Below are positions 2,066 to 52,403 of a stretch of 64,000 nt of DNA, in pieces (within the stretch, counting starts at the first letter, position 1; every line of letters begins with the position of its first letter). The stretch is from Candidatus Enterousia sp. (GTDB lineage Bacteria > Pseudomonadota > Alphaproteobacteria > Rs-D84), in the NCBI GenBank assembly GCA_045629645.1, contig JAZQRR010000034.1, forward strand, positions 10,996 through 74,995, written 5' to 3'. A program made the translations under genes and the position numbers. A model generated the notes under the pieces. The model was not told where the DNA came from. It did not search any database and saw only the letters and a list, made by a program, of their open reading frames with translations.

Positions 2066-2104
2066 AAAAAAATATAAAAAATCCCGCGATTGCGGGATTG
2101 TCTT
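2066..2104. terminator. Bidirectional rho-independent terminator between convergent genes
   Basis: Hairpin cccgcgattgcggg (stem cccgc/gcggg) flanked by an A-run and a T-run. It lies between the +strand yqaA-like gene and the first minus-strand paralogue. Confidence 0.6.
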
Positions 2105-2526
2105 TATTCGACCCAAATATCAGCATCTGCCGTTGTAGAGCCCTGCCCACCAGATGGAATCTTACCAAAAATACCATCTGTTTTGGCCCTTGTAACCTGA
2201 CCATCTGCAATCTTGTTTGTTGTTACAGCAGCATCTTTAATTTTTGTTTCTGTAATTGCATCTGTTGCAATTTTGTCTTCTGTTACATTTTGACTCAAAA
2301 TTTTATTCGTTGTAACAGCATCATCTGCAATCATTGCATTTTGGATTTGACCGGTTGTCATCTCACCGGTTTCACCAGTAACGACCGCCATATTTGCCGT
2401 ATCAAACTTTTTCACATTTGCAACAATCGTGTCAACATAAGCCTTGCTGGGAACAGCTGCACTGGCCACACCAGTAACACCGACCAATAAAACAGCCACA
2501 AAAAAAGCAAAAACACATTTATACAT
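2104..2526 (-). CDS. Secreted Ala/Thr-rich repeat protein, paralogue 1 of a 4-gene tandem family
   Basis: Sec signal peptide (MYKCVFAFFVAVLLVGVTGVASA). The N-terminal motif AAVPSKAYVD is shared with the next two genes. There are repeated AVTTNKI / D-KIATDAI units. Confidence 0.55.
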   Translation of the reverse strand: MYKCVFAFFVAVLLVGVTGVASAAVPSKAYVDTIVANVKKFDTANMAVVTGETGEMTTGQIQNAMIADDAVTTNKILSQNVTEDKIATDAITETKIKDAAVTTNKIADGQVTRAKTDGIFGKIPSGGQGSTTADADIWVE

Positions 2527-2672
2527 ATTCTACATTCCCACTGTATTGTAAAAGTTGCCTTTACAATTTTTATAATACAGCACCCATTTTTTATATCAGT
2601 TACAACAAGTTAATTCAGCTTATAAAATCCTGCCGTATGTTGGGGAAAACCCCCAACATACAAAAACCAGAT

Positions 2673-3731: not shown

Positions 3732-3765
3732 TTTTTTCTTCCTTTCTTTCGTTTTGTTTTTTTAT

Positions 3766-4950: not shown

Positions 4951-4975
4951 TGTTTCCTTCCTTTTTTCGTTTTTC

Positions 4976-5887
4976 TTAATTATTTGTTATCACGTTCGTT
5001 TGTGCATCTTCGACCACAACAGTCAAAGATTCCCACGATTTTTTATCCGCATCGTACACATACATCCCTGTACCCGCCGGTGCCTGCAATCCACCAGACG
5101 ACATTACTTCTAATCCTTCAACGCGTGCCGACAATTCATCCAATTCAGACTGTTCTGCCTTGGACGCCAAATCCGTTTTATCCGCTTTACCTTCCAACAA
5201 GGCACCAACAATACTGTTTACATAACCTTCAACAACCGAATCCAAGCCCTGAATTGCATCCTCTATCTTCGTCAAGCGTTCTTCTAAGTCTGTTACATCT
5301 TGAATACCGGAAACATTGATTTCAACCCCGTTAACCGTCAACCTTCCATCAACTTCATCAAATTCAAGACTGTCAACATCCTGTAATTTCTCTTTAACTC
5401 TTTCTAACTGGGCAATAACAGAATCTGCATTTTCAAACCCAACAAAGTCCTTGATATCATCAATATTATTTACAACATTGGTCAAATCCTGCTTAATATC
5501 CGAAATTTCATTTTTCACTTCCGTCACATCAACAGACGAACCACCAACAATTGGCTTTGAAACAGAACCTGTCGCCGCACTAGTCCCCGCCAGATAACGA
5601 CCGATTGACAAACGTGGCGTCGCAGCAGCACGCGACGAAGAAACACGCGTATTCGACAACGACCCCGAACCAGATGTAGTACGAGCCGCCCCAACACGGG
5701 TTGCGCCAGTTGCCCCATCAGACACACTTGTACCACCCGACTTGGCAGTAGCCGCACTGGCCGCACTGGAATACGTACCAGCACCACCCAACGAACGAAC
5801 CGAAGACGCCGCAAACGCAGGCATTGACATCACCGCACACAGTACGCTGACAATAGATAATGTTGATATTCTAAAATTATGTTTCAT
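4976..5887 (-). CDS. Secreted Ser/Gly/Thr-rich plus coiled-coil protein, paralogue 4 (divergent)
   Basis: Signal peptide MKHNFRISTLSIVSVLCAVMSMPAFA, then a low-complexity S/G/T/A region and a coiled coil. It shares the LEGKADKTDLASKAEQSELDEL motif with paralogues 2 and 3. Confidence 0.6.
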   Translation of the reverse strand: MKHNFRISTLSIVSVLCAVMSMPAFAASSVRSLGGAGTYSSAASAATAKSGGTSVSDGATGATRVGAARTTSGSGSLSNTRVSSSRAAATPRLSIGRYLAGTSAATGSVSKPIVGGSSVDVTEVKNEISDIKQDLTNVVNNIDDIKDFVGFENADSVIAQLERVKEKLQDVDSLEFDEVDGRLTVNGVEINVSGIQDVTDLEERLTKIEDAIQGLDSVVEGYVNSIVGALLEGKADKTDLASKAEQSELDELSARVEGLEVMSSGGLQAPAGTGMYVYDADKKSWESLTVVVEDAQTNVITNN

Positions 5888-21248: not shown

Positions 21249-21713
21249 TTATTCACCATATACAATTTGCACAGAATTCATACCATCTGTTTTTGAACAA
21301 TCGCTTGACGCCCCACCTGTTTTACCACCAGAAATTCTATATCCAACAGAATCAGACCAAGCTTTGGCACGCAGCGATTCGCATTCCGATTGCCCCAGTC
21401 CGTCAATCGTCAACACAAACTGACGCGGATTACTTGGGTCAACAGACAACGAATAAGAACCACCATACGGATTTTTATCCGACACACCAATTGCGCTGAA
21501 AATAGTAGCACCGTTCATATTAGAAAAATCATCATATTCCGCATGAATATTTCTGACCATTGTGACGATTTGCATAACTTCATCATTTACCGCTGTCAAC
21601 TTTTGTGTTCTCATTGCGGTTGAAATCATACCAATGGCACCAACTGTTATCACCCCCATAATTGCCAACACGCCCAACATTTCTATCATAGAACGACCGG
21701 ATTCTTGTCTCAT
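21249..21713 (-). CDS. Prepilin-type (type IV pilin/pseudopilin-like) protein, solitary
   Basis: N-terminus GRSMIEMLGVLAIMGVITVGAIGMI: Gly, then Glu at +5, then a ~20-aa hydrophobic helix (class III signal). The C-terminal Cys pair (SEC...SSDC) resembles a pilin D-region. The +1 residue is atypical. Confidence 0.45.
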   Translation of the reverse strand: MRQESGRSMIEMLGVLAIMGVITVGAIGMISTAMRTQKLTAVNDEVMQIVTMVRNIHAEYDDFSNMNGATIFSAIGVSDKNPYGGSYSLSVDPSNPRQFVLTIDGLGQSECESLRAKAWSDSVGYRISGGKTGGASSDCSKTDGMNSVQIVYGE

Positions 21714-27551: not shown

Positions 27552-28013
27552 ATGTCAAATAAAGAAACAACAAATACAAAAACACAAGACAATTCTGTAT
27601 TAAAAACAACCTACAACATAAAATTCGGTTCATTCATGCCGAACGCATTTTTTGGTATGTGCTATGAAACACCAATGGCAGTTATAAAAATCAATGGTGT
27701 CGAACAAAAAACAAAGACTGGTTGGCTGGGTGCAGTCAATTTTCCAAATCCATGCGCATACGAAATGTCAGTACATCAAGAACAATTACAAACAGTCATG
27801 GGACCTGATATCGCGACAACAATCATCGAATACAAAGATTGTAAAACCAAGGATCCTGTTGCATTACTATTCCCAAATGCGTTACACGTATTTGACGAAT
27901 ACGAAAAAGATTACAGAAAACATTTAAACAACGCAACATTGAAAGACCTGGATTACGAAATGGCGATCCGTGTTGCATTGGTTGAAAAATATAAAAAGGA
28001 TAATCAACATTAA
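27552..28013 (+). CDS. Hypothetical protein
   Basis: 153-165 aa ORF with an RBS-like AAAGG upstream of the ATG at 27552. A terminator follows at 28012..28042. Confidence 0.4.
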   Translation: MSNKETTNTKTQDNSVLKTTYNIKFGSFMPNAFFGMCYETPMAVIKINGVEQKTKTGWLGAVNFPNPCAYEMSVHQEQLQTVMGPDIATTIIEYKDCKTKDPVALLFPNALHVFDEYEKDYRKHLNNATLKDLDYEMAIRVALVEKYKKDNQH

Positions 28014-28037
28014 AAAAACCGCCAATTGGCGGTTTTT

Positions 28038-30851
28038 TTATTCTTTTTTCACACACTTGCCATTGGTTAAATCATAACCATCAACACACTTGGTTATTTT
28101 ACAAGCCGACCAATCGCGCCCCGCCCAAGTTTGTGTCGCACTTGCCGCATTTTCTGGCATATCTGGACAAGTTCTGATTTCAGGGTCACATTTTTTTCCA
28201 TCTGTATTCTTTTCATACATATTATCACATGCAACAACCATACAATCAGTATAAGTTCCATCTGCTTTCAATGTCTGCTTTGCGCTTTTTGCATTAGTGA
28301 TAGCACACTCAACCTCTTCCTTTAAACACTGGTTATTAATATTCTTATAACCTGTTCTACATTGTGAAATCACACAATCTCCCCAATTACTGCCGTTCCA
28401 AGTCTTTACTCCTTGGTCACCGTTATTATCCAGGCACCCCCGTGTTTCCGGCACACATTTATTACCATCTAAATTGTAATGATCTTTACATGTTGTTATC
28501 ACACAGCTGCCCAACGTACCATTTTCTATGGTTGCATACGCTTCTGCAACACCAACCAGATCTCCTGAACAATCAACCTTGGTTCTTTCTTCACATTTAC
28601 CATCTTTCAAGATATAACCATCATTACATGCTGTTGCAACACAAACACCATTCGAATTCTTGTAGCCAGATTTTGCATTAGATGGCAATTCACCCAACTT
28701 GCATCTTTGTTCTGTTGAAATATCTGCAGACCAGTTACGGATATCTGCAACACCAGCATCCAACAAACATTGTTCACGCATAGACGCTGAATTACCAGAC
28801 GCATTCAACGCAATATTTGCTGCACCAGAACCTGTACCATTCAAAATTTCATTTAATGTTACAACATTACGGCATGTATTCTTGGTGTAATCTTGATTAT
28901 TCGAACAACTGTTGCTATCCGCCACATCTATAACTGCCTTGAATTGTGCCGTCGAAGGATTACAAATCATTTCTTCATAACAATGCGGAACATTTGCAAT
29001 CTGGGCACAGTATGTTTTGATACGTGCATCAGGCCAGTTTGGTTCGCTGTCTGCTGTACTTTCATAACAGTCATAAATTTCACTTAAACATTCGTTAAAG
29101 TTCGTACCAGCCTCAATCGCAGCAGTCAAAATTTCTTCTTCTTCTTCTACTGCAAATTCCAGACGTTTTTGTTGCAAGGCTTGTTGTGCTGCAACCTTTT
29201 GATACGCAATATTTTGTGCAGTCGCACGCAGTTGTTCACCATACAAATCGCAATCTGCATTGGCGTCCAACAAATACTTATTCATAATACTGCGACGTGC
29301 ATCCGCAACAGGACCACGCAGATTTGAATAAGGATCCCCAGATGTTGTTGTATAACCAAAACATGACGCACTGGCATTTATAGAACCTGTTGATGTTGAA
29401 CCACGTTCATTCAACGCAATTTCACCAGACGCATTAACATCAATTTTGGAATTATAATTGAACGGACAATTAGAAGACTGACCGTTTGCACACTTGCCAC
29501 CGAACGATGCTGGCGAACCACAAGATTCATAAATACCATTAAAGCAAGAATCCAAGACACGACCACAAACTTCGTTATGCGCATGCGCAAACAGTTGATA
29601 CCCCCATGTATTTGCCAATGTATCTTTGGATTCTTCTGTAACTGACAAAGAAGACCCCAGCCCAGCCAATCCATTAACAACACCAGAAACACCTTCGAAC
29701 GCACTTAACAAAGAATCGTCATTATCTGTCAGGATTGTGATTGTATTTTCTTTGGCCTTGGCCCATGCCTGCAAGTTCGCCAAAATATCAGAACCACTAC
29801 CATTTAAATTCTTGATATCAAAACCAAAATTGTTATTTGAACAGTATTCAGGTTGATTACAAGAAGAAACAACACTTCCATTATTAAATATACCATGCGA
29901 CGAACACCAATCTACCGCCTCTTGCGAAGAAACGCCATGTTCATTTGTAACCTCGCGCCAGGAAACACAGTTCATAACCTGTTCTGCTTCGGTCAACTGG
30001 AACGCATCAGAAACATCTTTACCCCTGTTTGCAATCAACAATGCCAATTCACCAGACGCCTTGATTAATTCTTCATTTGCTGTTTCCAACGCTGCTTCTG
30101 CTTCTGCAAACGCGGTGACACGACCAGCGCATGCACAACGACGCTGTGCCTGATTACGTGCAGTACAAATTTCGTCCATACACGCATAATAAGATTCCAA
30201 ACAATTATTAAACGCATCTGTTGAAATCAAACCGGTTGTTGAATCGATAATATTTGAATAATTCCCCGTATATAATTTATTTGTCAGATAAGAATAAGTT
30301 GTACCACCGGAACTCTTAGAACCACGAATCGCACTACCCTGCAAAGAAACACGTGCAGCATCTGAGTCAACCGCTGTACGTGCACGCACATTACGATTAT
30401 TTGCCGCAGTTGTTCTGTTTGTAACAACCGCACTGCGCGAAACTACATTTCTTTTATTTTCTGTTTGTGCACGGGATGCAGTTGCACGTGAATTTGTTGT
30501 ACGTGACGCAACCGCACGTGTTGCCGCAGCACGAGTTGCATTTGCACGTGCATTACTTGCACGGGCTGTTGCTGTACGGGCAGATATTGCTGGTGTTGCA
30601 ACCGTTGTTCTGGCGACATTAGCACGCGCAGTCGCACGATTACGTGGACTTTCACGCAATGCCGCGCCACGCGCATTACCAGCCGCAACCTGCTGTTGCA
30701 TTAAAACCATCGGGTCATTAATTGGCGCAATTGGATCTGCCAACACAGTACGCATTGACACAAATGTCGAACAAACCAAGAACGCCCCCAACAACAGACA
30801 CGCTGTTCCAATTGCATTCTTAACAGAACTTACGATTTTTTGACTTATCAT
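28038..30851 (-). CDS. Large secreted cysteine-rich modular protein (937 aa)
   Basis: The signal peptide is followed by an Arg/Ala/Thr-rich low-complexity repeat (TARASNARANATRAAATRAVASRTT...). Then come a coiled-coil segment and about five C-terminal ~50-aa Cys modules of the pattern W-G--W--C-I--C--GY-L----C. Confidence 0.6.
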   Translation of the reverse strand: MISQKIVSSVKNAIGTACLLLGAFLVCSTFVSMRTVLADPIAPINDPMVLMQQQVAAGNARGAALRESPRNRATARANVARTTVATPAISARTATARASNARANATRAAATRAVASRTTNSRATASRAQTENKRNVVSRSAVVTNRTTAANNRNVRARTAVDSDAARVSLQGSAIRGSKSSGGTTYSYLTNKLYTGNYSNIIDSTTGLISTDAFNNCLESYYACMDEICTARNQAQRRCACAGRVTAFAEAEAALETANEELIKASGELALLIANRGKDVSDAFQLTEAEQVMNCVSWREVTNEHGVSSQEAVDWCSSHGIFNNGSVVSSCNQPEYCSNNNFGFDIKNLNGSGSDILANLQAWAKAKENTITILTDNDDSLLSAFEGVSGVVNGLAGLGSSLSVTEESKDTLANTWGYQLFAHAHNEVCGRVLDSCFNGIYESCGSPASFGGKCANGQSSNCPFNYNSKIDVNASGEIALNERGSTSTGSINASASCFGYTTTSGDPYSNLRGPVADARRSIMNKYLLDANADCDLYGEQLRATAQNIAYQKVAAQQALQQKRLEFAVEEEEEILTAAIEAGTNFNECLSEIYDCYESTADSEPNWPDARIKTYCAQIANVPHCYEEMICNPSTAQFKAVIDVADSNSCSNNQDYTKNTCRNVVTLNEILNGTGSGAANIALNASGNSASMREQCLLDAGVADIRNWSADISTEQRCKLGELPSNAKSGYKNSNGVCVATACNDGYILKDGKCEERTKVDCSGDLVGVAEAYATIENGTLGSCVITTCKDHYNLDGNKCVPETRGCLDNNGDQGVKTWNGSNWGDCVISQCRTGYKNINNQCLKEEVECAITNAKSAKQTLKADGTYTDCMVVACDNMYEKNTDGKKCDPEIRTCPDMPENAASATQTWAGRDWSACKITKCVDGYDLTNGKCVKKE

Positions 30852-31021
30852 CGAACTCTCCCTGTGTTTCGGTCAACGCCCCAGAAACCCAACCTTTCAT
30901 TAATCCTTGCCATACAAAATGTATGTTTATCTCTGTAATTATATCAATTTTTTAAATATCTGTAAACAACAAAGTACACATTTTACACATAAAAAAACGC
31001 CCCATTATCGGGGCATTTTTA

Positions 31022-32293
31022 TTATTGAACACCTACACTAAATTCATCCCCCCAACCGGCGACAGACTGCCCACCGATTACACAATTAATATCTTCAAAA
31101 CCATCTTCTATCTGATGTTTTTTGATAACACTGCTGGTAATCAGACCACCTGCAGTTCCCAAAACAACCCCAGCGATGGAATCCGACGCCAAACGTGCAG
31201 TATTAAACTTACCTTCTTCGTCTTTCCAAACACTTACTTTAAATCCAGATTCAATATTCTTCAAAACGTTTTCAGCCGCCAAAATTGCCTTACGCGACGC
31301 CGATGTATCCACCGGCGTTGCTGCTTCAACAACAACTGTTACCTCATCGCTTTTTGTACACATAGCATTAACTAAACCTTGAACAGCTGCTCTCGTTTCA
31401 TTAAATTTTCCAACTGTCAAATCTGACTTTTCACACAACGCCTCAAACTTAGAAATTTCCACAAGAACATCCTGCGATGCCTTACATTGCACCTTCCAGG
31501 CACTAATCGTAACCCCAACACTGTCATCACATTGATACGATGCGTTCTCTTCACCCTTGACATTACAATAGCCCTGCAAACCATCATAAGAAAATTCTTG
31601 ATTTTGACCGACACAAACACATTGTGAACCGTCCCACTTTGCAACCGATAACGACAACGAACAACACGCCTTACCCTCTGCCGTTGTACGCGAATCTACG
31701 CAAGAAGTTTTATTTTCCCCTGGCTTTGGAGCTGGCATTGGAGCAGGCTTTGGAGCTGGCATTGGAGCTGGCTTTGGATCTGGCACAGGCTGTGTCTGCC
31801 CAGGTTTCTGACCATGGTCATAATAACAAAAAGCATCCTTAGAAGTAGACGTATAATACTGACTAGCCATATGAACCTTCGCCAACGAATTCGGAACATA
31901 AATATCATAATTACCATGTGTAGTAATTAACCGTTTACCATCAGTAGTACTACACTTGTTTAAACTAGTAGCGCCAACCGAGGCCCATGCATTTCCACCG
32001 CTGGTCGAACATCGATATATACCCACATCATCTTTTGTTTCATTATCCCACACATGAACACCTGTAATAACCGCAAAAGCACCTTCTTCACAAGAACCAT
32101 CTTGAAAGCCACCACAAATCAAAGCCAAACCATTGCTATCTTTGTAATCAGCCAGCGTAGGAAACAAATATTCATTAGAAGACTTCCACGAACTCCACCC
32201 AATATTTAACACTTTTGAACAATTATAGTTATCTGCCACTGCACCGGATACACAACCAAACAAAACCAATACAGACAATAAAATCTTCTTCAT
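31022..32293 (-). CDS. Secreted cysteine-rich protein with a Pro-rich (PAPKPAPM) linker repeat
   Basis: Signal peptide MKKILLSVLVLFGCVSGAVA. The DNA carries the 24-bp repeat ccaaagccagctccaatgccagct, encoding PKPAPMPAPKPAPMPAPKP. There are ~20 Cys residues. Confidence 0.55.
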   Translation of the reverse strand: MKKILLSVLVLFGCVSGAVADNYNCSKVLNIGWSSWKSSNEYLFPTLADYKDSNGLALICGGFQDGSCEEGAFAVITGVHVWDNETKDDVGIYRCSTSGGNAWASVGATSLNKCSTTDGKRLITTHGNYDIYVPNSLAKVHMASQYYTSTSKDAFCYYDHGQKPGQTQPVPDPKPAPMPAPKPAPMPAPKPGENKTSCVDSRTTAEGKACCSLSLSVAKWDGSQCVCVGQNQEFSYDGLQGYCNVKGEENASYQCDDSVGVTISAWKVQCKASQDVLVEISKFEALCEKSDLTVGKFNETRAAVQGLVNAMCTKSDEVTVVVEAATPVDTSASRKAILAAENVLKNIESGFKVSVWKDEEGKFNTARLASDSIAGVVLGTAGGLITSSVIKKHQIEDGFEDINCVIGGQSVAGWGDEFSVGVQ

Positions 32294-32381: not shown

Positions 32382-33662
32382 TTATTTATATTCACCAATC
32401 AACTGTTGAATCTGGGCGGACAAAACCAAATCTGACGCTTGTTGTTTTTCAATCTGTTTGATTGCATACAAAACTGTTGCATGATCACGACCACCAACAA
32501 AATTACCAATTTCTGTCAAAGACAAACCTGTAACATTCTTTAATACCACCATCATAATCTGACGCGCCAAAACCAATGAACGACTGCGACCATTACCACA
32601 TACTGCATCATAAGACACAGCCAACTTTTCACACATATCTTTAACCATCGCAGATGGTGTTTTTGTTTTCTGCAATGTATCTGCCAACAAACGCTGCGCA
32701 ACAGCCATATCAACCGCAGCACCCATCAAATCTGTATATGTTTTAATTTTTGTTGCAACACCTGCAATTAAATGACCATCATTTGCAATACGTGACGCAA
32801 TCGCATTCGCAACATCCATCGCAACACCTGCGCGCTGTAACATAACTGTTTTAACATGTGCATTTGGCGCACAAACATCTGCAACCAAACCAGACGCCAA
32901 CAAAGATTGTGCACGTCTGTCAAAACCTGTCATATTGTTTGGTGCCGCATTTGAAGTCAAAACAATATTCTTGCCTGCGTTACGCAAATCAACAACCAAT
33001 TGCAAGAATTCATCTGTTGAGGCTTTTTTACCAGACAAACTTTGAACATCATCCAAAATAAATGTATCGCAATTACGGCAAAAATCTTTGAACGCGAAAA
33101 TATTATGTTCTTTCAAGCTGCGTGTAAATTCAGAAACAAACTGTGCGCCACTCATCTTAACAACACGCCCCTGGGCCGCACCTGCGATACATTCTGTTAA
33201 CAATGTTTTACCGCAACCTGCCACACCATAAATAAACAGCGGAGAGAAAGGAACCTTACCCGCCGCCAATTTTTTGCACGCAGACAAAACAAACAAATTT
33301 TCATCACTAGCAACAAACGCATCAAACGCAATAGATGAATCTTGGGACGCAACAACTGGCGCATAAGCCTGTGCCTTGTTATCATTTGCAACTGCCGCAA
33401 CAGACTTAACCGCTGCACTGCGAACAACAACGCGCGCATCTAAACCAAATTCATGTGCAACAGACGCAATTACATTACCGTGAACACTGTTGATAAAATC
33501 TGCTGAAAATTGATTTTGCGCACCCAAAACCAATGTATTATCTGTAACATCAAATGTTAATGGTGCAATCCAAGAAGAAAAACTTGCAGAATCTATTTTT
33601 GCGGCAATGGCCCCCTTGATAACGTCCAAGTTAGTCATTTGAATTTTTGCCACTGTCTGCAT
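32382..33662 (-). CDS. dnaA: Chromosomal replication initiator DnaA
   Basis: AAA+ Walker A GVAGCGKTLL and the C-terminal DNA-binding helix (TEIGNFVGGRDHATVLYAIKQIE). An RBS AAGGAG sits 9 nt upstream of the ATG. Confidence 0.9.
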   Translation of the reverse strand: MQTVAKIQMTNLDVIKGAIAAKIDSASFSSWIAPLTFDVTDNTLVLGAQNQFSADFINSVHGNVIASVAHEFGLDARVVVRSAAVKSVAAVANDNKAQAYAPVVASQDSSIAFDAFVASDENLFVLSACKKLAAGKVPFSPLFIYGVAGCGKTLLTECIAGAAQGRVVKMSGAQFVSEFTRSLKEHNIFAFKDFCRNCDTFILDDVQSLSGKKASTDEFLQLVVDLRNAGKNIVLTSNAAPNNMTGFDRRAQSLLASGLVADVCAPNAHVKTVMLQRAGVAMDVANAIASRIANDGHLIAGVATKIKTYTDLMGAAVDMAVAQRLLADTLQKTKTPSAMVKDMCEKLAVSYDAVCGNGRSRSLVLARQIMMVVLKNVTGLSLTEIGNFVGGRDHATVLYAIKQIEKQQASDLVLSAQIQQLIGEYK

Positions 33663-35238: not shown

Positions 35239-36096
35239 TTAACTTGCTAAATCAAACAAACTATCATACTTAGTGCATATTGATTCTATTGCAGAATCAT
35301 CCGCATCATCCCATATATTTTTTTCACATTCTGCCTTTAACTTGCGTAAATTCTTGATATAATTATCGTATTCAGATGCATTTTCCTTGGCCAAGACAGA
35401 CAACTGTGAACGCAACAATTGATCACCCTGCAAAGACTTTTGACCTTCGACCTTGCCACCAATCAATTTATTTCCAAACAATTCCATTGCACCAACACCA
35501 ATACCTGCACCACCAACAACGCCACCAACAGTTCCCCACACACGCGCCGTCTTTTTAGCATCCAATATTCTCTGACGCAAAGTTTCTTCGTTCGCCCATG
35601 TTCCGCATGTTATACTGCGTCCCATTTCAAAATACTTACTTGGAATATCTGAAACATCAATTTTCGAATCGTTTGATTTTATATCAACCTTAACAAAACA
35701 AACATTATTTTCAGGTTCTTCCACGTCTTCTATCATCGTAGAATAATTATTCAAATTACTGTAACGTGACGCCCACACAAAAGTATTTCCCATACCAACA
35801 TTATTAGACATACATGCGTTACGTTCTTTTTCGCGCATATCTTTTTTAACCGCAGGAACCGCCTGTTCTGGTGTAATCGCCATACTACCAACTGCGATTG
35901 CCTGTTGCTGTGCCGAAACAGGGTTTGCCGTCATCGCCGCGGCCGCCAGTTGATTTTTCGATGCAACCACAGCACGAGCATCCGTATTAGTATAAGAATT
36001 TACCGACGCACGACCACGTGGATTATTCGGCGTCACCGCATCAGCAGCCCCCCCCAGAAACAAAATAGAAAAAAACACACTTATAAAATATTTCAT
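35239..36096 (-). CDS. Hypothetical secreted protein
   Basis: Signal peptide MKYFISVFFSILFLGGAADA. 285 aa with no recognisable motif. Confidence 0.45.
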   Translation of the reverse strand: MKYFISVFFSILFLGGAADAVTPNNPRGRASVNSYTNTDARAVVASKNQLAAAAMTANPVSAQQQAIAVGSMAITPEQAVPAVKKDMREKERNACMSNNVGMGNTFVWASRYSNLNNYSTMIEDVEEPENNVCFVKVDIKSNDSKIDVSDIPSKYFEMGRSITCGTWANEETLRQRILDAKKTARVWGTVGGVVGGAGIGVGAMELFGNKLIGGKVEGQKSLQGDQLLRSQLSVLAKENASEYDNYIKNLRKLKAECEKNIWDDADDSAIESICTKYDSLFDLAS

Positions 36097-36197
36097 ATCC
36101 TCTTCCCTTATTTGCCAATTCATTATACCACAAAAAGGCAAAAAAATAAAGCATTAATATAAATAAAAAAAAAGGGGCACACAGCCCCCTTGATATA

Positions 36198-37429: not shown

Positions 37430-39064
37430 TTAGTTCAGAGGCGCACCCCAATGCTGCTGAATACTACGTTCTACATCCATTGGGCTAACCAAAACTTGCG
37501 GTGTCAAGATAACAACCAATACTTCACGGGTTGCAGATGTTTCGCGAGAACCAGACAATGCCATAAAGTCAGGGTCGCCTAAACCATATCTGGTGTCTTC
37601 ATTGGTCTGTTTTTCAAAACCAGAAACAACCAACATTTGACCAGATTCCATAATAACTTCTTGCATAAAGCTACGTTCTTCTACTTCTGGTAATTGCAAT
37701 GTTACTTCGCCGATTGTTTGGGTTGACATACGCAACAATTCACGCACAGACATACGGAACAACAGCAAAATCTTGCCATTTTCTAAAACATTTGGCAACA
37801 ACTGCATTGTAAAACCTGTTTCCAAATCATCTTGATCAACAGTACTTGATTCAACAGTTGTAAAGTTTCTGGATTCAAAACGTTTAATATACCCTGTTGT
37901 ACGTGTATTGCTGACCGGTGCGACACGATTACTGCGGGTTGTTACACCAACATTTGTAACCAAAGATACCTTGCCCTGCTTTGCTAATGCCTCTATCAAA
38001 GCACTACTGCCTGCGACACCAGACAATGAACCGTTCATAATATCATCCGCGCTATATGCACCATCAACAGTTACGCCATTTTCTACGTGTGTTGCCCCAG
38101 TCAACGCCGAAACAGCATTAGACAATACCGCAATATTCATAGAACTTGCTTCTGTTGATGCCAAATTATTCTTTGGATTTGCAACAATATTTAATCCTGA
38201 TGTAGAATTAATTGCGGCCGCCAAATTCAATCCGAACGCAGAATCATTAGATATAGTAACCTGCAAAACCTTGACATCAATTGTAATTAATTGGCTAAGA
38301 CGTTTATTTTGTTTTTCAATATACTCCCCAACACGCGCCAGAACAGATGGAGCTGCCGTTACAGTTATTGTCCCTAAACTGCGAGACACGGTAAAATCTG
38401 CATTTTCACTTTTTCCGATAATTGAAGAAATTGCATTTTCTACTTCATCCCACTCTTTCAATGTAGATTCCAACGAAACTTCGTTCGCGTTATCTGTTGA
38501 TACAGATGTTTGATATGCAACCTCGGTTCCCAGGGCATACAAAGTAAATGTTTTTGTTTCTGTTTCATAGAATACAATCGAATTTTTATCATAATACCAC
38601 AATAAATCCAAATCAGTCGCAACCTGAGACAATAAACCAGACAATTTTCCTGTATAAGCAACATTAACTGTCTTGCGCAATTTATCAGCTGCGATTTGAC
38701 TGTCTATTTTCACAGGAATACCTGTTACAGAATAAATATCATTTGCCAACACCTGCAATGAAACAGGTTCGTTCAACAAAATTGTAACACCTGTATCTGA
38801 TTCAAATTGTTTTGGCAAATTATTACGATGTTCCAAAACAGTAGATTTATTTCCCAGCCAAATTCCTTCGGACATAGAAACAGTATCACCCGTAGCAACC
38901 TTGGCACGTGGATTTTTCGCCATTTCAAACGCATCATACGCATTAATAAAATCCTGATCAACGGATGCCGCAACCTTGGCAGATTCTTTTTTTGCACACG
39001 CTGTTACCGCCACCAGAACTAACGCACACAAACCAAATAACTTGATAGCTTTTTTCATATTCAA
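37430..39064 (-). CDS. Secretin-family outer-membrane lipoprotein (type IVb pilus TcpC/BfpB/PilN-like)
   Basis: Lipobox LVAVTAC. The C-terminal secretin domain motif is VVSGFEKQTNEDTRYGLGDPDFMALSGSRETSATREVLVVILTPQVL (the G-G--------G-P-L--IP-LG-LF------R-EL-I-ITP pattern). 544 aa. Confidence 0.7.
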   Translation of the reverse strand: MNMKKAIKLFGLCALVLVAVTACAKKESAKVAASVDQDFINAYDAFEMAKNPRAKVATGDTVSMSEGIWLGNKSTVLEHRNNLPKQFESDTGVTILLNEPVSLQVLANDIYSVTGIPVKIDSQIAADKLRKTVNVAYTGKLSGLLSQVATDLDLLWYYDKNSIVFYETETKTFTLYALGTEVAYQTSVSTDNANEVSLESTLKEWDEVENAISSIIGKSENADFTVSRSLGTITVTAAPSVLARVGEYIEKQNKRLSQLITIDVKVLQVTISNDSAFGLNLAAAINSTSGLNIVANPKNNLASTEASSMNIAVLSNAVSALTGATHVENGVTVDGAYSADDIMNGSLSGVAGSSALIEALAKQGKVSLVTNVGVTTRSNRVAPVSNTRTTGYIKRFESRNFTTVESSTVDQDDLETGFTMQLLPNVLENGKILLLFRMSVRELLRMSTQTIGEVTLQLPEVEERSFMQEVIMESGQMLVVSGFEKQTNEDTRYGLGDPDFMALSGSRETSATREVLVVILTPQVLVSPMDVERSIQQHWGAPLN

Positions 39065-39088
39065 TCTCTCCCTTGGGACACTGCCATA

Positions 39089-39976
39089 TTATTGTTCACC
39101 TGTTGATATTACTAACACCCTATTTCCCTTGTAGAATTTAGCATAAGGTATTGGTGTTGCACGACCAAAATTACGAACCAACGCAGACGCCACATCAACA
39201 AAACGTCCCTTGAACACTGCACTTGCTTCTATTGGATATTCACGTGCAGTTGCCCACACCAAATCCCAACCTTCTTTATCACACCAATCTTGCAAAACCT
39301 GACGCAAAGTCTGTCCATTTGCAACAACCCAAGAACGCACCTGATCAGTCATACTTGCTGGCGCTTCTGCATCAGCAGACACATCAACCGCAATTTCTGT
39401 ATCACTTGTTTGTTGTTTTTCTTCAACAATCATCCCCATTTTCTGTGCAAACGCATCATATCCATCAGCATATTTTCCACAGTTTTTACGTCCGCTGCGC
39501 GACACAGTCAACACATTACCACCATCATCTTCTAAAACTTCGCGATGCAACAATGGCATTTCAGAATTATTATTACATTCATCATCAAAACCAACAGGAA
39601 TCTGATTACCATGCAACATATTTGCACCACCAGACCAACCAGAAAATTCCCCACGAGTCCCCATATTTATATTGTTTTCAACAATCAAATCGGCACCAAT
39701 CTTAGAAACAATACGAATATTGTCTGAACTTTCAGATCTTGAACAATTATTCATTTCACAACTAACCTCGACATCTGCATCTGACCCAACCAATGGCCAC
39801 GCAGGCACATCACGATAAGTTTCAACAACATCAATTTGTTCCTGAATATCATCATTCACAAATCTTTCCTGTTCATAAATAACTTCTGATGTTACAACTT
39901 GGGGCAACATATCGTTCGCACTACAATACCCCGCCGCAGTGGCAAACATCGCGAAAATCAAGACTTTGCGAAACAT
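39089..39976 (-). CDS. Secreted protein with a C-terminal TcpQ/PilL-like domain (putative secretin partner)
   Basis: Signal peptide MFRKVLIFAMFATAAGYCSA. The C-terminus W--ANGQTLRQVLQDWCDKEGWDLVWATAREYPIEASAVFKGRFVDVASALV...KFYKGNRVLVI fits the conserved TcpQ/ICE PilL pattern recalled from memory (GW-LVW...Y-I-A---F-G-F--A...Y-GNRVL-I). It lies 24 bp upstream of the secretin gene. Confidence 0.45.
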   Translation of the reverse strand: MFRKVLIFAMFATAAGYCSANDMLPQVVTSEVIYEQERFVNDDIQEQIDVVETYRDVPAWPLVGSDADVEVSCEMNNCSRSESSDNIRIVSKIGADLIVENNINMGTRGEFSGWSGGANMLHGNQIPVGFDDECNNNSEMPLLHREVLEDDGGNVLTVSRSGRKNCGKYADGYDAFAQKMGMIVEEKQQTSDTEIAVDVSADAEAPASMTDQVRSWVVANGQTLRQVLQDWCDKEGWDLVWATAREYPIEASAVFKGRFVDVASALVRNFGRATPIPYAKFYKGNRVLVISTGEQ

Positions 39977-49590: not shown

Positions 49591-50862
49591 ATGAATGTTT
49601 ACGACAGTTGGCGAATTGCTGCACTGTTAGAACATCGTGGTATGCAACGTACAGACAGCATACCAGATGCGGACATAATCATATTAAACACATGCGCTGT
49701 TCGTGCCAAGGCAACGGATAAAGTCTTTTCTGCACTGGGGCGCATCAGACGTGCAAAGAAACCATCAGCCTTGTTCGGCATTGTTGGATGCGTTGCACGC
49801 GAATCTGGATCTGACGCTTTTCGCAGAATACCTGATTTAAATTTTGTTCTGGGACCGCAAAGTTATCATAAATTACCAGACATACTGGACAATCCTGATG
49901 CAAAATTATTAAACATCGATTTAGGCGGCTTAGAAAAATTTGACGCCCTGCCCCAGATGGAAAAATCACCACGTGTCGCATACATTCCAATCCAAGAAGG
50001 ATGCAATCATTGCTGTACATACTGCATTGTGCCATACACACGCGGACGCGAATTATCACGCGACTTTGATGCATGTATGCGCGACACAATTCATGCTGCA
50101 AAAACAGGTGCAATTGAAATTTGCTTCTTGGGTCAAAACGTAAACGGATATAAATACACAGACAAAAATGGCAAAACATACCGCCTGTCTGACCTAATCC
50201 GAGAAACAGCAAAAATCCCAGAAATTATGCGCATACGCTTTACTTCCAGTTATCCAACCGAAATGACGGACGACCTGATTGATATGTTTGCCACAGAACC
50301 AAAATTATTACCATTTTTAAATATGCCAATCCAAAGTGGTTCACAAAATGTATTAACAAAAATGAATCGTCCATACACACTGGAATTATACACAGACATT
50401 ATTAGAAAATTACGAATCGCGCGTCCAGACATACAAATATCATCTGACTTCATCGTGGGCTTCCCAGGTGAAACCGATTCGGATTTTGAAGACACTATGC
50501 GTATTGCAGAACATGTAAAATATATAAATTCTTATTCGTTTAAATATTCTCCGCGTCCACACACCGCGGCGGCACTGATGCCTGATCAAATTCCAGAAAG
50601 CATCAAGTCTCAACGTCTGGCAAAACTGGACACGTATTTAAACGAAGTTCAACGTGAATTCAACCTCTGCTGCGTAGATACTGTTTTAACCTGCCTGCTA
50701 GAAGGTCCAGATAAAACAGGAACAAAATTGATATATCGTACACCATATATGCAACAATGCGTTGTAAACGCCCCAGAAAATACAGCGGCACCAGAATTAG
50801 CACAGATTAAAATTACTGCTGCTAACAAGGCATCTTTACGCGGGGAACTGGTACAAGATTAA
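49591..50862 (+). CDS. miaB: tRNA-2-methylthio-N6-dimethylallyladenosine synthase MiaB (5' end disrupted by an in-frame TGA)
   Basis: Radical-SAM CxxxCxxC (CNHCCTYC) and MTTase/TRAM domains. An ATG at 49555 opens MKKFFIQTFG-TGA-QMNVYDS, in the same frame as the ORF. Confidence 0.8.
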   Translation: MNVYDSWRIAALLEHRGMQRTDSIPDADIIILNTCAVRAKATDKVFSALGRIRRAKKPSALFGIVGCVARESGSDAFRRIPDLNFVLGPQSYHKLPDILDNPDAKLLNIDLGGLEKFDALPQMEKSPRVAYIPIQEGCNHCCTYCIVPYTRGRELSRDFDACMRDTIHAAKTGAIEICFLGQNVNGYKYTDKNGKTYRLSDLIRETAKIPEIMRIRFTSSYPTEMTDDLIDMFATEPKLLPFLNMPIQSGSQNVLTKMNRPYTLELYTDIIRKLRIARPDIQISSDFIVGFPGETDSDFEDTMRIAEHVKYINSYSFKYSPRPHTAAALMPDQIPESIKSQRLAKLDTYLNEVQREFNLCCVDTVLTCLLEGPDKTGTKLIYRTPYMQQCVVNAPENTAAPELAQIKITAANKASLRGELVQD

Positions 50863-52403
50863 AACATCAGTCTTAAATTTATCGACAACGCATAAGAAAT
50901 CGTATCTGATATCGATACCGCGGACAATGTTATATCTCCGCCAAGTGCATCTATATCCGACCATGCACCAACATGTGCAGATAACATAACATCCGAAAAA
51001 TCATTAACACTGATACGCGCATCATAATTATAACGCACGCCCAAAAATTCAAATGTGTAACCAAAATCCGTTCCCAGACGCATATACATATTAAAATCAG
51101 AAACAGTTGATAATTTATAATAATCAGCTACCACACCAAGATAAGGCGTCAAATAAAACGAATCGGACAAATCAAACTTATATCCAAAATCAGTCAACAC
51201 ATATCCAGATAATACACTGGGTTCAGAAATAATTTTATTATTATAAAAGACCATATTAACATCAAAATCTGACTTGGCAGCCATAATATCAGTACGAACA
51301 AACGCATTATCATAAAATTTATATTTCAGATTTAAATCAAGTCCATACATCAACCCGCCAAAATCATCCAAATCAGACCCATATTCAATTTTTCCAAAAC
51401 GTGCACCAACACCGACAAGAAAATCATCTGATATATTATTGACGTACTTTAAATTCAATCCGTACATAAAAAAATCTTCTGACATAACACCAAACAAATC
51501 AGCACCCGAACCCCCGACCAAAAAATCATATTTCAACATATCAAACGCATACAATGTTTGTACAGGCTGCAACAAAACATCTGAATTAAATCGTACAGAA
51601 CGAGACATAATATTATTTAATTCGTTCATATCCATCGCATTATCCAGATATAAAAATAATTTTTCACCACCACCATAGATACGCAAATTATTCAAGAAAT
51701 CGCCACAATCTGCACCGTCAAAGACAACCGCATAATCCGTTTCACGCACACGTTTTATTGACAAGCGTCCATTATCTATCTGTCCTGCAACAGAAAACAT
51801 CGGATCAGAATTATTTTCTTCAAACCTTACCGACCAACCGCCTGAAACATTATCCAGCAAAACATCATTTTGAAAATCTGTGGCATCATCAATCAGAAAA
51901 ATCACATTATCCCCAATATCGACTAACACAGACCTGTTATCCGGTACAGAATCAATATTTATCTTTGTGTTTTCAATAAAAACACGTTTGGCATCACCGG
52001 ACACACTAATCAAATCAGACAAAGTTAAAACGTCATCACTATCGACCAAAACAGTATAAGGTTCTGTTGTTCCAATATCATTTAAATCTTGTTGACCAAA
52101 GACAACCTGATACAGATTAACATCTTGGCCCAAAATAAAATTTGAATCTATAACACCTGAATTTTGCACATAAACTTCACATCTGTCACACACATGAATA
52201 TTTGTTCTTATCAAACCACTATTCTGCACGAACATAGACTGGGCCAGATATAAATCTGTTGGTGCGACAGTAATATCCTTTTCAACAAAAAAATCATTAT
52301 AAAATGTTTTCTGACTGCCCCAAATATCATTACTAACAACTGATGCGTCCACAGACATTGTTATAAATAAGCACAAAACAAAAGCAAGCAACCTGTTCAA
52401 CAT
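50859..52403 (-). CDS. Autotransporter-like outer-membrane beta-barrel protein
   Basis: Signal peptide. The C-terminal ~270 aa is alternating aromatic/hydrophobic beta-strand sequence ending ...SINLRLMF (terminal Phe). Confidence 0.5.
   Translation of the reverse strand: MLNRLLAFVLCLFITMSVDASVVSNDIWGSQKTFYNDFFVEKDITVAPTDLYLAQSMFVQNSGLIRTNIHVCDRCEVYVQNSGVIDSNFILGQDVNLYQVVFGQQDLNDIGTTEPYTVLVDSDDVLTLSDLISVSGDAKRVFIENTKINIDSVPDNRSVLVDIGDNVIFLIDDATDFQNDVLLDNVSGGWSVRFEENNSDPMFSVAGQIDNGRLSIKRVRETDYAVVFDGADCGDFLNNLRIYGGGEKLFLYLDNAMDMNELNNIMSRSVRFNSDVLLQPVQTLYAFDMLKYDFLVGGSGADLFGVMSEDFFMYGLNLKYVNNISDDFLVGVGARFGKIEYGSDLDDFGGLMYGLDLNLKYKFYDNAFVRTDIMAAKSDFDVNMVFYNNKIISEPSVLSGYVLTDFGYKFDLSDSFYLTPYLGVVADYYKLSTVSDFNMYMRLGTDFGYTFEFLGVRYNYDARISVNDFSDVMLSAHVGAWSDIDALGGDITLSAVSISDTISYALSINLRLMF

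What the first reader, a model, noticed from the sequence alone, without database searches (positions are those of the whole stretch)
28038..32293. Two adjacent large cysteine-rich secreted proteins with low-complexity repeats next to dnaA
The first protein is 937 aa. It has a signal peptide, an Arg/Ala/Thr-rich (TARA/SRAT) low-complexity repeat, and a coiled coil. It ends in ~5 tandem ~50-aa Cys modules of the pattern W-G--W--C-I--C--GY-L----C, which look like small disulfide-knot or EGF-sized repeats, unusual for bacteria. The second protein is 423 aa. It has a signal peptide and ~20 Cys residues, plus a perfectly repeated DNA unit encoding PAPKPAPMPAPKP, a proline-rich hinge. Neither has a recognisable enzymatic motif. 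They sit between a parE-like gene and dnaA, like an inserted islet. Candidate roles are host-interaction proteins (adhesins or effectors), possibly eukaryote-like.
Basis: seen in the sequence. Interest (0 to 1): 0.6.

Follow-up and report, generated by a model that had tools for sequence, protein, structure and literature searches.

The report
Variable cysteine-rich envelope proteins of Enterousia
Two neighbouring genes of an uncultured, tiny-genome gut bacterium (Candidatus Enterousia) encode exported, disulfide-rich envelope proteins from two large unnamed bacterial families, each with a conserved anchoring part and a fast-changing tip; they are not foreign or eukaryote-like, and their role is still unknown.

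Summary
p1 (28038-30851, 937 aa, 46 Cys) and p2 (31022-32293, 423 aa, 18 Cys) are intact, separately transcribed genes. The organism is Candidatus Enterousia (order Rs-D84, genomes under about 1 Mb).

Neither gene is an islet or eukaryote-like. GC and codon usage are native. Each has over 1,100 homologues, and every named one comes from an alphaproteobacterial or proteobacterial metagenome genome. p2 keeps its place beside dnaA in a distant genome; p1 moved here.

Cysteine counts are even in 115 of 117 p1 relatives and 110 of 118 p2 ectodomains, which argues for disulfides.

p1 has a signal peptide, an Arg-rich tract, a helical 24-Cys core and five 4-Cys beta modules. Module number varies between relatives. 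Within one species the modules show dN/dS 1.18, against 0.18 for the core.

p2 has a hypervariable head, a proline spacer, a second domain and a conserved C-terminal membrane segment with tail. Two strains 99% identical in the flanks carry heads only 15-18% identical. The same anchor is also fused to OmpA-like domains, which suggests a periplasmic location.

No Pfam, NCBIfam, PDB or fold match is significant.

Best reading: clade-specific envelope proteins whose tips contact a changing counterpart. The location and the ligand are inferred, not shown.

The parts
28038..30851 (-). p1: 937-aa exported cysteine-rich protein, a member of a clade-wide family
   Evidence: ORF. More than 1,147 homologues. 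Relatives in 304 GTDB species representatives. Mature Cys count is even in 115 of 117 relatives.
30738..30851 (-). p1 signal peptide (aa 1-38), putative cleavage ..VLA|DPIAP
   Evidence: Hydrophobic maximum at aa 13-31, Kyte-Doolittle 2.16. The motif A-D-P-[IV]-A-P is conserved in the family. Cleavage was not tested; no signal-peptide predictor was available.
30336..30680 (-). p1 basic low-complexity tract (aa 58-172): Ala 27%, Arg 18%, Thr 14%, with Arg about every 5 residues
   Evidence: Composition and spacing. Modelled as disordered. Length and sequence vary between relatives, but the Arg periodicity is kept.
28704..30299 (-). p1 conserved core (aa 185-716): mostly helical, 24 conserved Cys
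   Evidence: Long runs of invariant columns. Shared at 17-33% identity with 700-800-aa paralogues. AF2 helices, pLDDT 45-85. Within-species dN/dS over codons 1-715 (leader, basic tract and core) is 0.18.
28041..28703 (-). p1 C-terminal array of five all-beta modules of about 44 aa, four Cys each
   Evidence: Spacing. pLDDT 80-91. Copy number ranges from 0 to 8 or more in relatives. Within-species dN/dS is 1.18 with no Cys changed. Pfam CPL1-like scores 24.0 bits, below the 27.4 cut-off.
31022..32293 (-). p2: 423-aa exported cysteine-rich protein with a C-terminal membrane anchor
   Evidence: ORF. More than 1,255 homologues. Ectodomain Cys count is even in 110 of 118; the tail always has exactly one Cys.
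32234..32293 (-). p2 signal peptide (aa 1-20)
   Evidence: Sequence. It is conserved even between alleles whose heads differ.
31799..32230 (-). p2 hypervariable head domain (aa 22-165): beta-rich, 7 Cys in this segment (C25, C60, C68, C95, C114 nearly invariant in the family)
   Evidence: pLDDT 90-96. No fold match in PDB or BFVD. Median pairwise identity is 18.7% in the family. The allele is replaced within one species.
31709..31798 (-). p2 proline-rich spacer (aa 166-195), containing a 24-nt x 2.7 tandem repeat at 31722-31785
   Evidence: TRF. Sequence shows one mismatch. Modelled as disordered. The repeat is absent in the close allele of L089.
31358..31702 (-). p2 second Cys domain (aa 198-312): small beta sheet plus three helices
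   Evidence: pLDDT about 90. Moderately conserved; motif ..EGKACC..SVA.W.G..C.C...
31025..31303 (-). p2 juxtamembrane helix plus conserved C-terminal anchor. The membrane-like segment is aa 372-390 (31124-31180); KK and a 31-aa acidic tail with one invariant Cys follow (31025-31123).
   Evidence: Invariant columns W356..G421. Kyte-Doolittle 1.68. Anchor median identity is 78%, against 18.7% for heads. The same anchor is fused to OmpA-like domains and to many other Cys-rich heads. AF2 confidence is low here.
30993..31020 (-). terminator-like hairpin directly after the p2 stop codon
   Evidence: 12-pair stem plus T run.
30938..30966 (-). promoter-like site upstream of p1 (TTTACA-17-TATAAT, 11 of 12 matches, with TG)
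   Evidence: Consensus scan only.
28011..28040 (.). bidirectional terminator-like hairpin shared by p1 and the convergent 153-aa ORF
   Evidence: 13-pair stem with T runs on both strands.

Best explanation
p1 and p2 are native, Sec-exported, disulfide-bonded cell-envelope proteins of Candidatus Enterousia. This is a gut alphaproteobacterium of order Rs-D84 with a genome under about 1 Mb, proposed to depend on a partner organism. Each protein belongs to a large family restricted to this clade, and each combines a conserved 'base' with a rapidly diversifying 'tip'.

p1. After signal-peptide removal it has a basic, disordered Arg/Ala/Thr tract. Similar tracts follow the signal peptide of other envelope proteins of these bacteria, including an outer-membrane beta-barrel protein, so I infer that it acts as an envelope tether. 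Next comes an elongated helical core stapled by 12 disulfides. The protein ends in a variable number of small two-disulfide beta modules.

p2. It is held in a membrane by a conserved C-terminal hydrophobic segment and tail. A helical stalk and a conserved Cys domain follow. A proline-rich spacer then holds out a beta-rich head, which is exchanged as a cassette between strains by recombination in the conserved flanks.

I infer that the tips (the p1 modules and the p2 head) are binding surfaces that meet a counterpart which itself changes. Candidates are a partner or host surface, a phage, or a bacteriocin. The proteins would then act as adhesin- or receptor-like envelope components.

Shown: export signals, the disulfide signature, domain architecture, clade distribution, vertical inheritance, and the localisation of variation.

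Inferred: the compartment (periplasm-spanning or surface-exposed), the tether role of the basic tract, and the ligand.
For: Organism and lifestyle.

Native composition.

Family sizes and distribution.

Disulfide signature:
- Mature Cys count is even in 115 of 117 p1 relatives.
- Ectodomain Cys count is even in 110 of 118 p2 relatives, and the tail always has exactly one Cys.
- No Cys is changed among the 20 amino-acid differences (22 nonsynonymous changes) in the modules.

Architecture: AF2 models; alignments.

The variation is localised:
- Window against L089, dN/dS is 0.21 for p1 and 0.29 for p2, against 0.02-0.16 for neighbouring genes.
- Within one species (L089 against L006, 98.7-99% nucleotide identity), the p1 modules have 22 nonsynonymous and 5 synonymous changes (dN/dS 1.18). 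Codons 1-715 (leader, basic tract and core) have 8 and 13 (0.18). Fisher p = 0.003 against that part and 1e-10 against housekeeping genes.
- In the same pair the p2 head is 15-18% identical, while the signal peptide and anchor are 95-100% identical.
- The L089 head allele is 74-92% identical in DNA to the window's, although the window is a different species. Allele lineages are therefore shared across species.
- Across 119 family members, anchor median identity is 78% and head median identity 18.7%. Of 366 pairs with anchors at least 90% identical, 252 have heads at most 25% identical.

Envelope context:
- The ancestral p1 neighbourhood holds PagL, other Cys-rich exported proteins and two OMP barrels. 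One barrel carries a similar basic N-terminal tract.
- The p2 anchor is fused to OmpA domains. Pfam OmpA scores 30.5 bits, above the cut-off, in L094.
- Twenty-six metagenome loci carry the anchor behind many unrelated Cys-rich heads.
Against: - No experiment or structural homologue ties either protein to adhesion.
- The OmpA-like fusions imply that domains on this anchor face the cell's own peptidoglycan, in the periplasm. There, exposure to partners or hosts is not obvious.
- A module dN/dS of about 1 fits relaxed constraint as well as positive selection. The observed N:S ratio of 22:5 is close to the neutral site ratio of 3.7:1.
- The p1 core model has low confidence (mean pLDDT 57.5).
- No disulfide-forming enzyme was seen in the roughly 1.2 Mb of related loci held. 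This was not a whole-genome test.
- These organisms are reported to lack a respiratory chain.
- No route across the outer membrane was identified for p1.
Confidence: 0.5

Rival explanations
1. Purely internal envelope scaffold. p1 and p2 stay in the periplasm and, through disulfide-bonded rods and membrane or peptidoglycan tethers, stiffen or space the envelope of a reduced-genome cell. This would be analogous to the chlamydial cysteine-rich outer-membrane complex. The variable parts simply drift under weak constraint.
For: - The anchor is shared with OmpA-like peptidoglycan-binding domains.
- A similar basic N-terminal tract occurs on an OMP barrel, where it must be periplasmic.
- No export route across the outer membrane was identified.
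- p1 is a core gene of the clade, present in 304 species representatives.
- The module dN/dS of 1.18 is not significantly above 1.
Against: - Drift does not explain highly divergent p2 head alleles (15-18% identity) kept within one species and shared across species, with sharp recombination borders at the conserved flanks.
- The Cys framework is strictly kept while surface positions change.
- The p1 module also occurs in giant multi-domain proteins that look extracellular; the one named example is from a Deltaproteobacteria MAG.
Confidence: 0.28
2. One reading: a horizontally acquired islet encoding eukaryote-like secreted effectors or adhesins.
For: - The modules resemble EGF-, Sushi- or fibronectin-type-I-sized units. 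The best Foldseek hit is FnI modules at E 0.056. The best profile hit in the PDB is a complement-control protein at E 0.019.
- p1 is at a lineage-specific position.
Against: - Composition is native.
- Both families are clade-wide and bacterial.
- p2 is syntenic in distant genomes.
- The module is common in other large proteins in the public collections.
- None of the resemblances is significant.
- No mobile-element genes or flanking repeats were seen.
- p2 is membrane-anchored, not released.
Confidence: 0.03
3. Defence or competition locus. The p2 head is a polymorphic periplasmic immunity or decoy protein, or a receptor used by phages or bacteriocins, that is varied to escape them. p1 is unrelated and adjacent only by chance.
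For: - Allelic cassette replacement with conserved flanks is typical of loci in arms races.
- The periplasmic location implied by the anchor fits periplasm-acting toxins or phage entry.
- p1 and p2 are separate transcription units, and p1 was relocated here.
- The p2 head type does not co-vary with the p1 module type. L089 has a window-type head but L006-type modules.
Against: - No PADLOC or PHROG match.
- No toxin-like neighbour.
- No relatives on IMG/VR viral contigs.
- The family has very many Cys-rich heads with repeated small modules, which look more like binding arrays than immunity proteins.
Confidence: 0.15

Closest known systems
Giardia variant-specific surface proteins (VSPs)
   Same: A variable cysteine-rich ectodomain sits on a very conserved C-terminal membrane segment, followed by a short conserved tail that contains a Cys. 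Many different heads share one anchor.
   Different: VSPs are eukaryotic and rich in CXXC, and their variation comes from expression switching among paralogues. Here there is no sequence relation: Pfam lists no VSP match. Variation comes from allelic replacement. In a two-membrane cell the anchor may hold the protein in the periplasm. The comparison is from my own knowledge of VSPs and is an analogy only.
Chlamydial cysteine-rich envelope proteins (OmcB/OmcA)
   Same: Exported proteins with about 4-5% Cys, in a host-dependent bacterium with a reduced genome. A disulfide-bonded envelope role is plausible. OmcB also has a basic N-terminal region.
   Different: There is no homology: nothing in Pfam. 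The p1 core is predicted to be helical. Enterousia keeps rod-shape and peptidoglycan genes, so it has no obvious need for a wall substitute.
Small two-disulfide extracellular modules: fibronectin type I, EGF-like, Sushi/CCP, Pfam CPL1-like (PF21671)
   Same: About 44 aa, 4 Cys, all-beta, in tandem arrays, with a ..C-x2-G-[YF]-x5-8-C.. motif.
   Different: All matches are below significance: FnI Foldseek E 0.056; CCP profile E 0.019 with best single-stretch E-value 2.2; CPL1-like 24.0 bits against a cut-off of 27.4; cEGF E 9.9. The module is an unnamed repeat found in hundreds of protein clusters; every named example is bacterial.
OmpA/Pal/MotB-type peptidoglycan tethers
   Same: Relatives carrying the same C-terminal anchor have an OmpA-like domain. 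They would link a membrane to the wall.
   Different: p2 itself has no OmpA domain. The anchor is C-terminal and is neither a beta-barrel nor a lipobox. Which membrane it sits in is unknown.
TonB
   Same: Membrane anchor, then a Pro-rich (PK/PA) spacer, then a distal globular domain.
   Different: The only similarity is the composition of the spacer (NCBIfam TonB 17.5 bits against a cut-off of 315). The orientation is reversed, with the anchor at the C-terminus.
C-terminal sorting tags (PEP-CTERM, GlyGly-CTERM, T9SS CTD)
   Same: One conserved C-terminal element of about 70 aa is shared by many unrelated cargo domains within one clade.
   Different: No NCBIfam or Pfam tag model matches. The hydrophobic segment is followed by a 31-aa conserved acidic tail rather than a short basic cluster. 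No sorting enzyme was identified.

Membership tests
Pfam CPL1-like (PF21671) cysteine-rich domain | Score at or above the curated gathering threshold (27.4 bits) | tested here: not met
   15.1 bits on whole p1. 24.0 bits, E 4.2e-5, on the isolated module array, matching only profile positions 38-52. One homologue (P0021) carries a precomputed hit.
EGF-like / cEGF | Six-Cys EGF pattern recognised by the Pfam EGF models | tested here: not met
   Only cEGF, at E 9.9. The modules have 4 Cys per unit.
Fibronectin type I | Significant sequence or fold match to FnI modules | tested here: not met
   No Pfam fn1 hit. Foldseek's best hit is FnI7-9 at E 0.056, TM 0.29 on the target, rmsd 10.4.
Sushi/CCP | Significant profile match, with C1-C3 and C2-C4 spacing of about 60 aa | tested here: not met
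   Module profile against the PDB: vaccinia complement-control protein, E 0.019 for the whole chain and best single-stretch E-value 2.2. The unit is 44 aa.
Chlamydial Omc cysteine-rich proteins | Homology to the OmcB/OmcA Pfam families | tested here: not met
   No such family among Pfam hits at E up to 0.1.
Trimeric autotransporter (YadA-type anchor) | C-terminal YadA_anchor domain with a terminal aromatic residue | tested here: not met
   No YadA_anchor hit even at E up to 10 on the isolated C-terminus. The protein ends ..FSVGVQ. AF2 places short beta hairpins there, but at pLDDT 33-52.
TonB | TonB C-terminal domain plus N-terminal anchor; NCBIfam cut-off 315 bits | tested here: not met
   17.5 bits, confined to aa 167-195, the Pro-rich spacer.
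Known C-terminal sorting tags (PEP-CTERM, GlyGly-CTERM, T9SS CTD, LPXTG) | Match to the NCBIfam/TIGRFAM tag models | tested here: not met
   No NCBIfam hit on p2 other than Pro-rich artefacts. No Pfam hit on the isolated C-terminus.
OmpA family (for the proteins that share the p2 anchor) | Pfam OmpA at or above 27.2 bits | tested here: met
   The L094 protein scores 30.5 bits, E 4.7e-7. L104 scores 24.9, L029 24.3 and L010 19.0, all below the cut-off. p2 itself has no OmpA hit.
Disulfide-bonded exported proteins (general class) | Export signal, plus a bias to even Cys numbers in the exported part | tested here: met
   115 of 117 p1 relatives and 110 of 118 p2 ectodomains have even counts, over counts ranging from 6 to 56. 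The bonds themselves were not observed.
Anti-phage defence systems / phage proteins | Match to PADLOC or PHROG models, or presence on viral contigs | tested here: not met
   PADLOC: none. PHROGs: only 18.5 bits, including the Pro-rich stretch. No relatives in IMG/VR.

The most novel reading that the evidence does not exclude
The conserved C-terminal element of about 70 aa in p2 defines an undescribed anchoring or sorting system of Rs-D84 Alphaproteobacteria. It would display a large, interchangeable repertoire of disulfide-rich heads, a bacterial counterpart of variant-surface-protein coats. The dnaA-linked p2 locus would be a recombination hot spot that sets partner or host specificity, or that evades phage. 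p1 would be the rod-like core coat protein whose terminal modules diversify in parallel. The strong conservation of the anchor would reflect docking to a dedicated, still unidentified machine.
Probability: 0.18. Interest if true: 0.75.

Novelty: new variant of a known kind. Interest (0 to 1): 0.48.

Why it matters
Candidatus Enterousia and its order are widespread in human, livestock and wild-animal guts. They have genomes under about 1 Mb, no respiration and few recognisable transporters. They are therefore thought to live off a partner, but nobody knows which partner or how.

A genome this small still spends over 4 kb here on two disulfide-rich envelope proteins. The clade as a whole maintains thousands of variants of them.

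The p2 locus gives a concrete handle: a conserved anchor with swappable heads. The same goes for the diversifying p1 modules. Both are candidate contact surfaces. They could serve as strain markers, as baits for finding the partner or phage, and as antigens for enrichment or imaging.

The finding also raises a biochemical question. How does a non-respiring gut anaerobe oxidise dozens of exported cysteines?

If the tips merely drift, the finding reduces to two new families of unknown function.

Tried and rejected
- Pfam, NCBIfam, PADLOC and PHROGs on p1, p2 and their parts gave nothing above threshold.
- Profile searches of PDB sequences with the p1 family, the wider p1 superfamily, the p2 family and the module gave nothing significant.
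- Foldseek against the PDB had a best E of 0.056 for p1 and 0.58 for p2. Against BFVD, p2 had a best E of 0.45.
- hhalign of the p1 family against the p2 family showed that they are unrelated.
- A search for silent cassettes or paralogues of either gene in the window found none.
- Viral contigs hold no relatives.
- The third homology search, with the 71-aa anchor alone, returned only short fragments and was uninformative.
- I tested whether p2 heads and p1 modules co-vary as a binding pair and rejected it. L089 combines a window-type head with L006-type modules.
- I tested whether p1 and p2 are always linked and rejected it. p1 lies elsewhere in L001, L002 and L004. However, a short anchor-bearing OmpA-like gene follows p1 in L010 and L029.
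- A lipoprotein reading of p2 was rejected. Homologues lack a consistent lipobox and have A-x-A-type cleavage sites.
- A motif scan for DsbA-like CxxC proteins in the loci held found only cytoplasmic thioredoxin-type candidates.
- An exact look-up of P0001 found no gene with that product on record.

Full report
**What is there.** The minus strand carries two intact ORFs. p1 is at 28038-30851 (937 aa, 46 Cys, 4.9%). p2 is at 31022-32293 (423 aa, 18 Cys, 4.3%). Every other credible gene of the window has 2.8% Cys or less.

The flanks are dnaJ, a parE/gyrB-type gene, a convergent 153-aa ORF (27552-28013), then p1, p2, dnaA, dprA, a 294-aa secreted protein (p3) and plsY.

A strong terminator-like hairpin (30993-31020) follows p2. 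A promoter-like site with 11 of 12 matches (30938-30966) precedes p1. A bidirectional hairpin (28011-28040) ends p1. The two genes are therefore separate transcription units.

The proline-rich repeat is a 24-nt unit in 2.7 copies with one mismatch.

**Organism.** The closest public loci are MAGs named Candidatus Enterousia. This genus belongs to the uncultured alphaproteobacterial order Rs-D84. Its genomes are 0.75-1.0 Mb and lack a TCA cycle, a respiratory chain and standard transporters, and a partner-dependent lifestyle has been proposed (PMC12306168).

The window encodes a two-membrane envelope: Pal-like and TolB-like proteins (assigned by eye from the sequences), small OMP barrels, an autotransporter, and a TcpQ/secretin pair.

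**Not an islet, not eukaryote-like.**
- GC is 0.419 for p1 and 0.421 for p2, against 0.396 +/- 0.033 for the window's genes.
- GC3 is 0.293 and 0.318, against 0.330 +/- 0.043.
- RSCU correlation with the pooled genes is 0.92 and 0.79, against a mean of 0.76.
- p1 has more than 1,147 homologues and p2 more than 1,255. All named ones are hypothetical proteins from alphaproteobacterial or proteobacterial MAGs.
- 304 GTDB species representatives encode a p1 relative.
- In a distant genome the order sufB-...-tcpQ-secretin-plsY-p3-dprA-dnaA-p2-small ORF-parE-dnaJ is kept, without p1.
- In that genome p1 lies about 57 kb away, next to a PagL gene, inside a cluster of other Cys-rich exported proteins and OMP barrels.
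- The window lineage (L006, L089) shares the dnaA-p2-p1 order.

So p2 is in its ancestral place, and p1 is a relocated core gene.

**Disulfides.** After removal of the leader, the Cys count is even in 115 of 117 p1 relatives, with counts of 24-56. The p2 ectodomain count is even in 110 of 118 relatives, with counts of 6-38. The p2 tail always has exactly one Cys. This parity bias is the classic signature of fully paired cysteines in an exported domain. The bonds themselves were not observed.

**p1 anatomy.**
- Leader, aa 1-38, ending ..VLA|DPIAP. It is well conserved in the family.
- Basic disordered tract, aa 58-172: Ala 27%, Arg 18%, Thr 14%. It has 21 Arg against 1 Lys and 4 acidic residues, with Arg mostly every fifth residue.
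- Core, aa 185-716, with 24 conserved Cys and long stretches of invariant columns. AF2 models it as mostly helical, with long helices at 211-275 and 512-602, but only at pLDDT 45-85.
- Five C-terminal modules, aa 717-937: all-beta, pLDDT 80-91, with spacing C-x19-21-C-x4-C-x10-12-C.

Most orthologues (690-760 aa) have no modules. Others have up to eight or more, and some carry extra Cys repeats.

A search of 1.84 billion cluster representatives found 413 clusters. These include three groups:
1. p1 orthologues.
2. Paralogues of 700-800 aa that share the leader, the basic tract and the whole Cys-helical core at 17-33% identity. One lies 1-4 kb downstream of p1 in 24 of 87 loci.
3. Many unrelated proteins of 0.5-2.3 kaa that contain only the module, often 5-12 copies. 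They also carry RCC1, DUF4215 or Ig-like domains. The only one with a name is from a Deltaproteobacteria MAG.

The module is therefore an unnamed repeat that is widespread outside this clade. Its best database resemblances are all below significance: CPL1-like at 24.0 bits against a cut-off of 27.4, FnI by Foldseek at E 0.056, and a CCP domain at E 0.019.

**p2 anatomy.**
- Leader, aa 1-20.
- Head, aa 22-165: beta-rich, pLDDT 90-96.
- Proline-rich spacer, aa 166-195.
- Second Cys domain, aa 198-312, pLDDT about 90.
- Helix, aa 331-350.
- A conserved last stretch of about 70 aa..WKDxxGxFNTARLxSDSxAGVVLGTxGGLxTSxVxKK, followed by a 31-aa acidic tail with one invariant Cys.

The only hydrophobic segments are the leader and aa 372-390 (Kyte-Doolittle 1.68). 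AF2 is not confident in this region (pLDDT 33-52). Neither confident domain has a fold relative in the PDB (best E 0.58) or in BFVD (best E 0.45). The profile search of PDB sequences found nothing.

**Where the variation is.** Between the window and the next species (L006), ParE is 97% identical, DnaA 90%, p1 72% and p2 44%. Against L089, dN/dS is 0.21 for p1 and 0.29 for p2, compared with 0.02-0.16 for the neighbours.

L089 and L006 are strains of one species, 98.7-99.0% identical over 15 kb. They differ in two places.

1. *p2 codons about 22-291 cannot be aligned*.
 - The heads are 15-18% identical, while the leader and the last 100 residues are 95-100% identical.
 - In exactly this segment L089 matches the window, a different species, at 74-92% DNA identity.
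 - So very divergent head alleles coexist within a species and are shared across species. The recombination borders lie in the conserved ends.

2. *The p1 modules carry 22 nonsynonymous and 5 synonymous changes*, giving dN/dS 1.18.
 - None of these changes affects a Cys.
 - Codons 1-715 (leader, basic tract and core) have 8 and 13 changes, giving 0.18.
 - Five neighbouring genes have 8 and 61 in total.
 - Fisher p is 0.003 against codons 1-715 and 1e-10 against the neighbours.
 - dS is at background level, so this is not imported DNA.

Family-wide, anchors have a median identity of 78% and heads 18.7%. Of 366 pairs with anchors at least 90% identical, 252 have heads at most 25% identical.

**What the anchor tells us.** Directly downstream of p1 orthologues in L010 and L029 lies a 247-aa protein with the same anchor behind an OmpA-like domain. 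A metagenome scan with the anchor alone gave 26 loci. The anchor follows many unrelated, mostly Cys-rich heads, some built of small C-x-C modules. One locus (L098) has two such genes close together. Two more proteins are OmpA-like fusions, and one of them scores above Pfam's threshold (30.5 bits).

An OmpA-like domain normally binds the cell's own wall, so domains on this anchor probably face the periplasm. The even/odd Cys split fits three possibilities: a type-I inner-membrane topology with a cytoplasmic tail, an outer-membrane anchor, or a cleaved tag. I cannot separate these.

The strong conservation of the anchor is unusual for a plain membrane helix. It suggests docking to a conserved partner.

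Similarly, a basic Ser/Thr/Arg tract like that of p1 follows the signal peptide of an OMP barrel in L028 and of a 303-aa protein in the window. This suggests that such tracts are periplasmic tethers. That is inference.

**Interpretation.** The following points are shown:
- Both are native, exported, disulfide-type proteins of two large families specific to this clade.
- Each has a conserved base and a fast-changing tip.
- They are not an operon.
- They do not co-vary. L089 pairs a window-type head with L006-type modules.

The following points are inferred:
- The tips are binding surfaces facing a changing counterpart, such as a partner or host surface, a phage or a bacteriocin.

The main rival is a purely internal scaffold with drifting tips. 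It is favoured by the OmpA-like fusions and by the lack of a known export route. It is disfavoured by the maintained, recombining allele classes of p2 and by the strict retention of the Cys framework.

**Limits.**
- The p1 core model is weak (mean pLDDT 57.5).
- No structure coordinates were accessible for reading Cys pairing.
- No signal-peptide or topology predictor was available.
- Disulfide-forming enzymes were sought only in the loci at hand.

Noticed in passing
window 2104-5887 (-): Four adjacent secreted proteins. Three (140, 352 and 394 aa) begin with a shared '..V(T/P)SKAYVD..' motif followed by long Ala/Gln/Thr-rich repetitive sequence. The fourth (303 aa, 4976-5887) has a basic Ser/Thr/Ala/Arg tract after its signal peptide that resembles the p1 tract. 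No Pfam family matches.
   Followed up: partly
window 35239-36123 (-): p3 is a 294-aa secreted protein with a Gly-rich hydrophobic segment in mid-protein. It is conserved between plsY and dprA in all related loci seen. Identity falls from 81% to 58% in genomes where ParE stays at 95-97%. No Pfam, NCBIfam, PADLOC or PHROG hit.
   Followed up: partly
window 27552-28013 (+): A 153-aa ORF with no signal peptide and no Pfam or PDB match. It is always convergent next to p2, or next to p1 where p1 is inserted. It evolves fast: 40% identity where ParE is 95%, and dN/dS 0.36. It may be functionally linked to p2.
   Followed up: partly
window 37430-39976 (-) and 21249-21713 (-): A TcpQ-like gene plus a secretin gene, and a separate pilin-like gene with a weak N-terminal methylation motif. 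Together they suggest a type IVb pilus or related secretion apparatus. The published description of Rs-D84 reports type IV pilus genes only for the other lineage, UBA9783.
   Followed up: no
window 1-64000: GC skew is negative on the plus strand across the whole window and does not switch at dnaA. The replication origin is therefore either not next to dnaA here or not marked by skew.
   Followed up: no
window 32382-33662 and 27552-28013 against L089: Synonymous divergence from L089 is uneven. dnaA (0.34), p2 (0.31) and orf153 (0.24) are much lower than p1 (0.92), parE (0.90) and dnaJ (1.18). This hints at further between-species recombination tracts around the locus.
   Followed up: partly
L001 6183-9050, L002 5986-9158, L028 2855-10253: The ancestral p1 neighbourhood is an envelope cluster. 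It holds a third family of Cys-rich coiled-coil exported proteins (641-804 aa), a 250-aa Cys protein, PagL, p1, and two OMP barrels. One barrel (391 aa) has a basic N-terminal low-complexity tract.
   Followed up: partly
L098 2759-6037: Two anchor-bearing genes with unrelated heads lie about 0.6 kb apart on one 851-kb metagenome contig. Some lineages therefore carry several members per genome.
   Followed up: no
window 50859-52403 (-): A 514-aa protein with an autotransporter beta-domain (27.3 bits, just above the cut-off). This shows that a type V secretion route is present.
   Followed up: no
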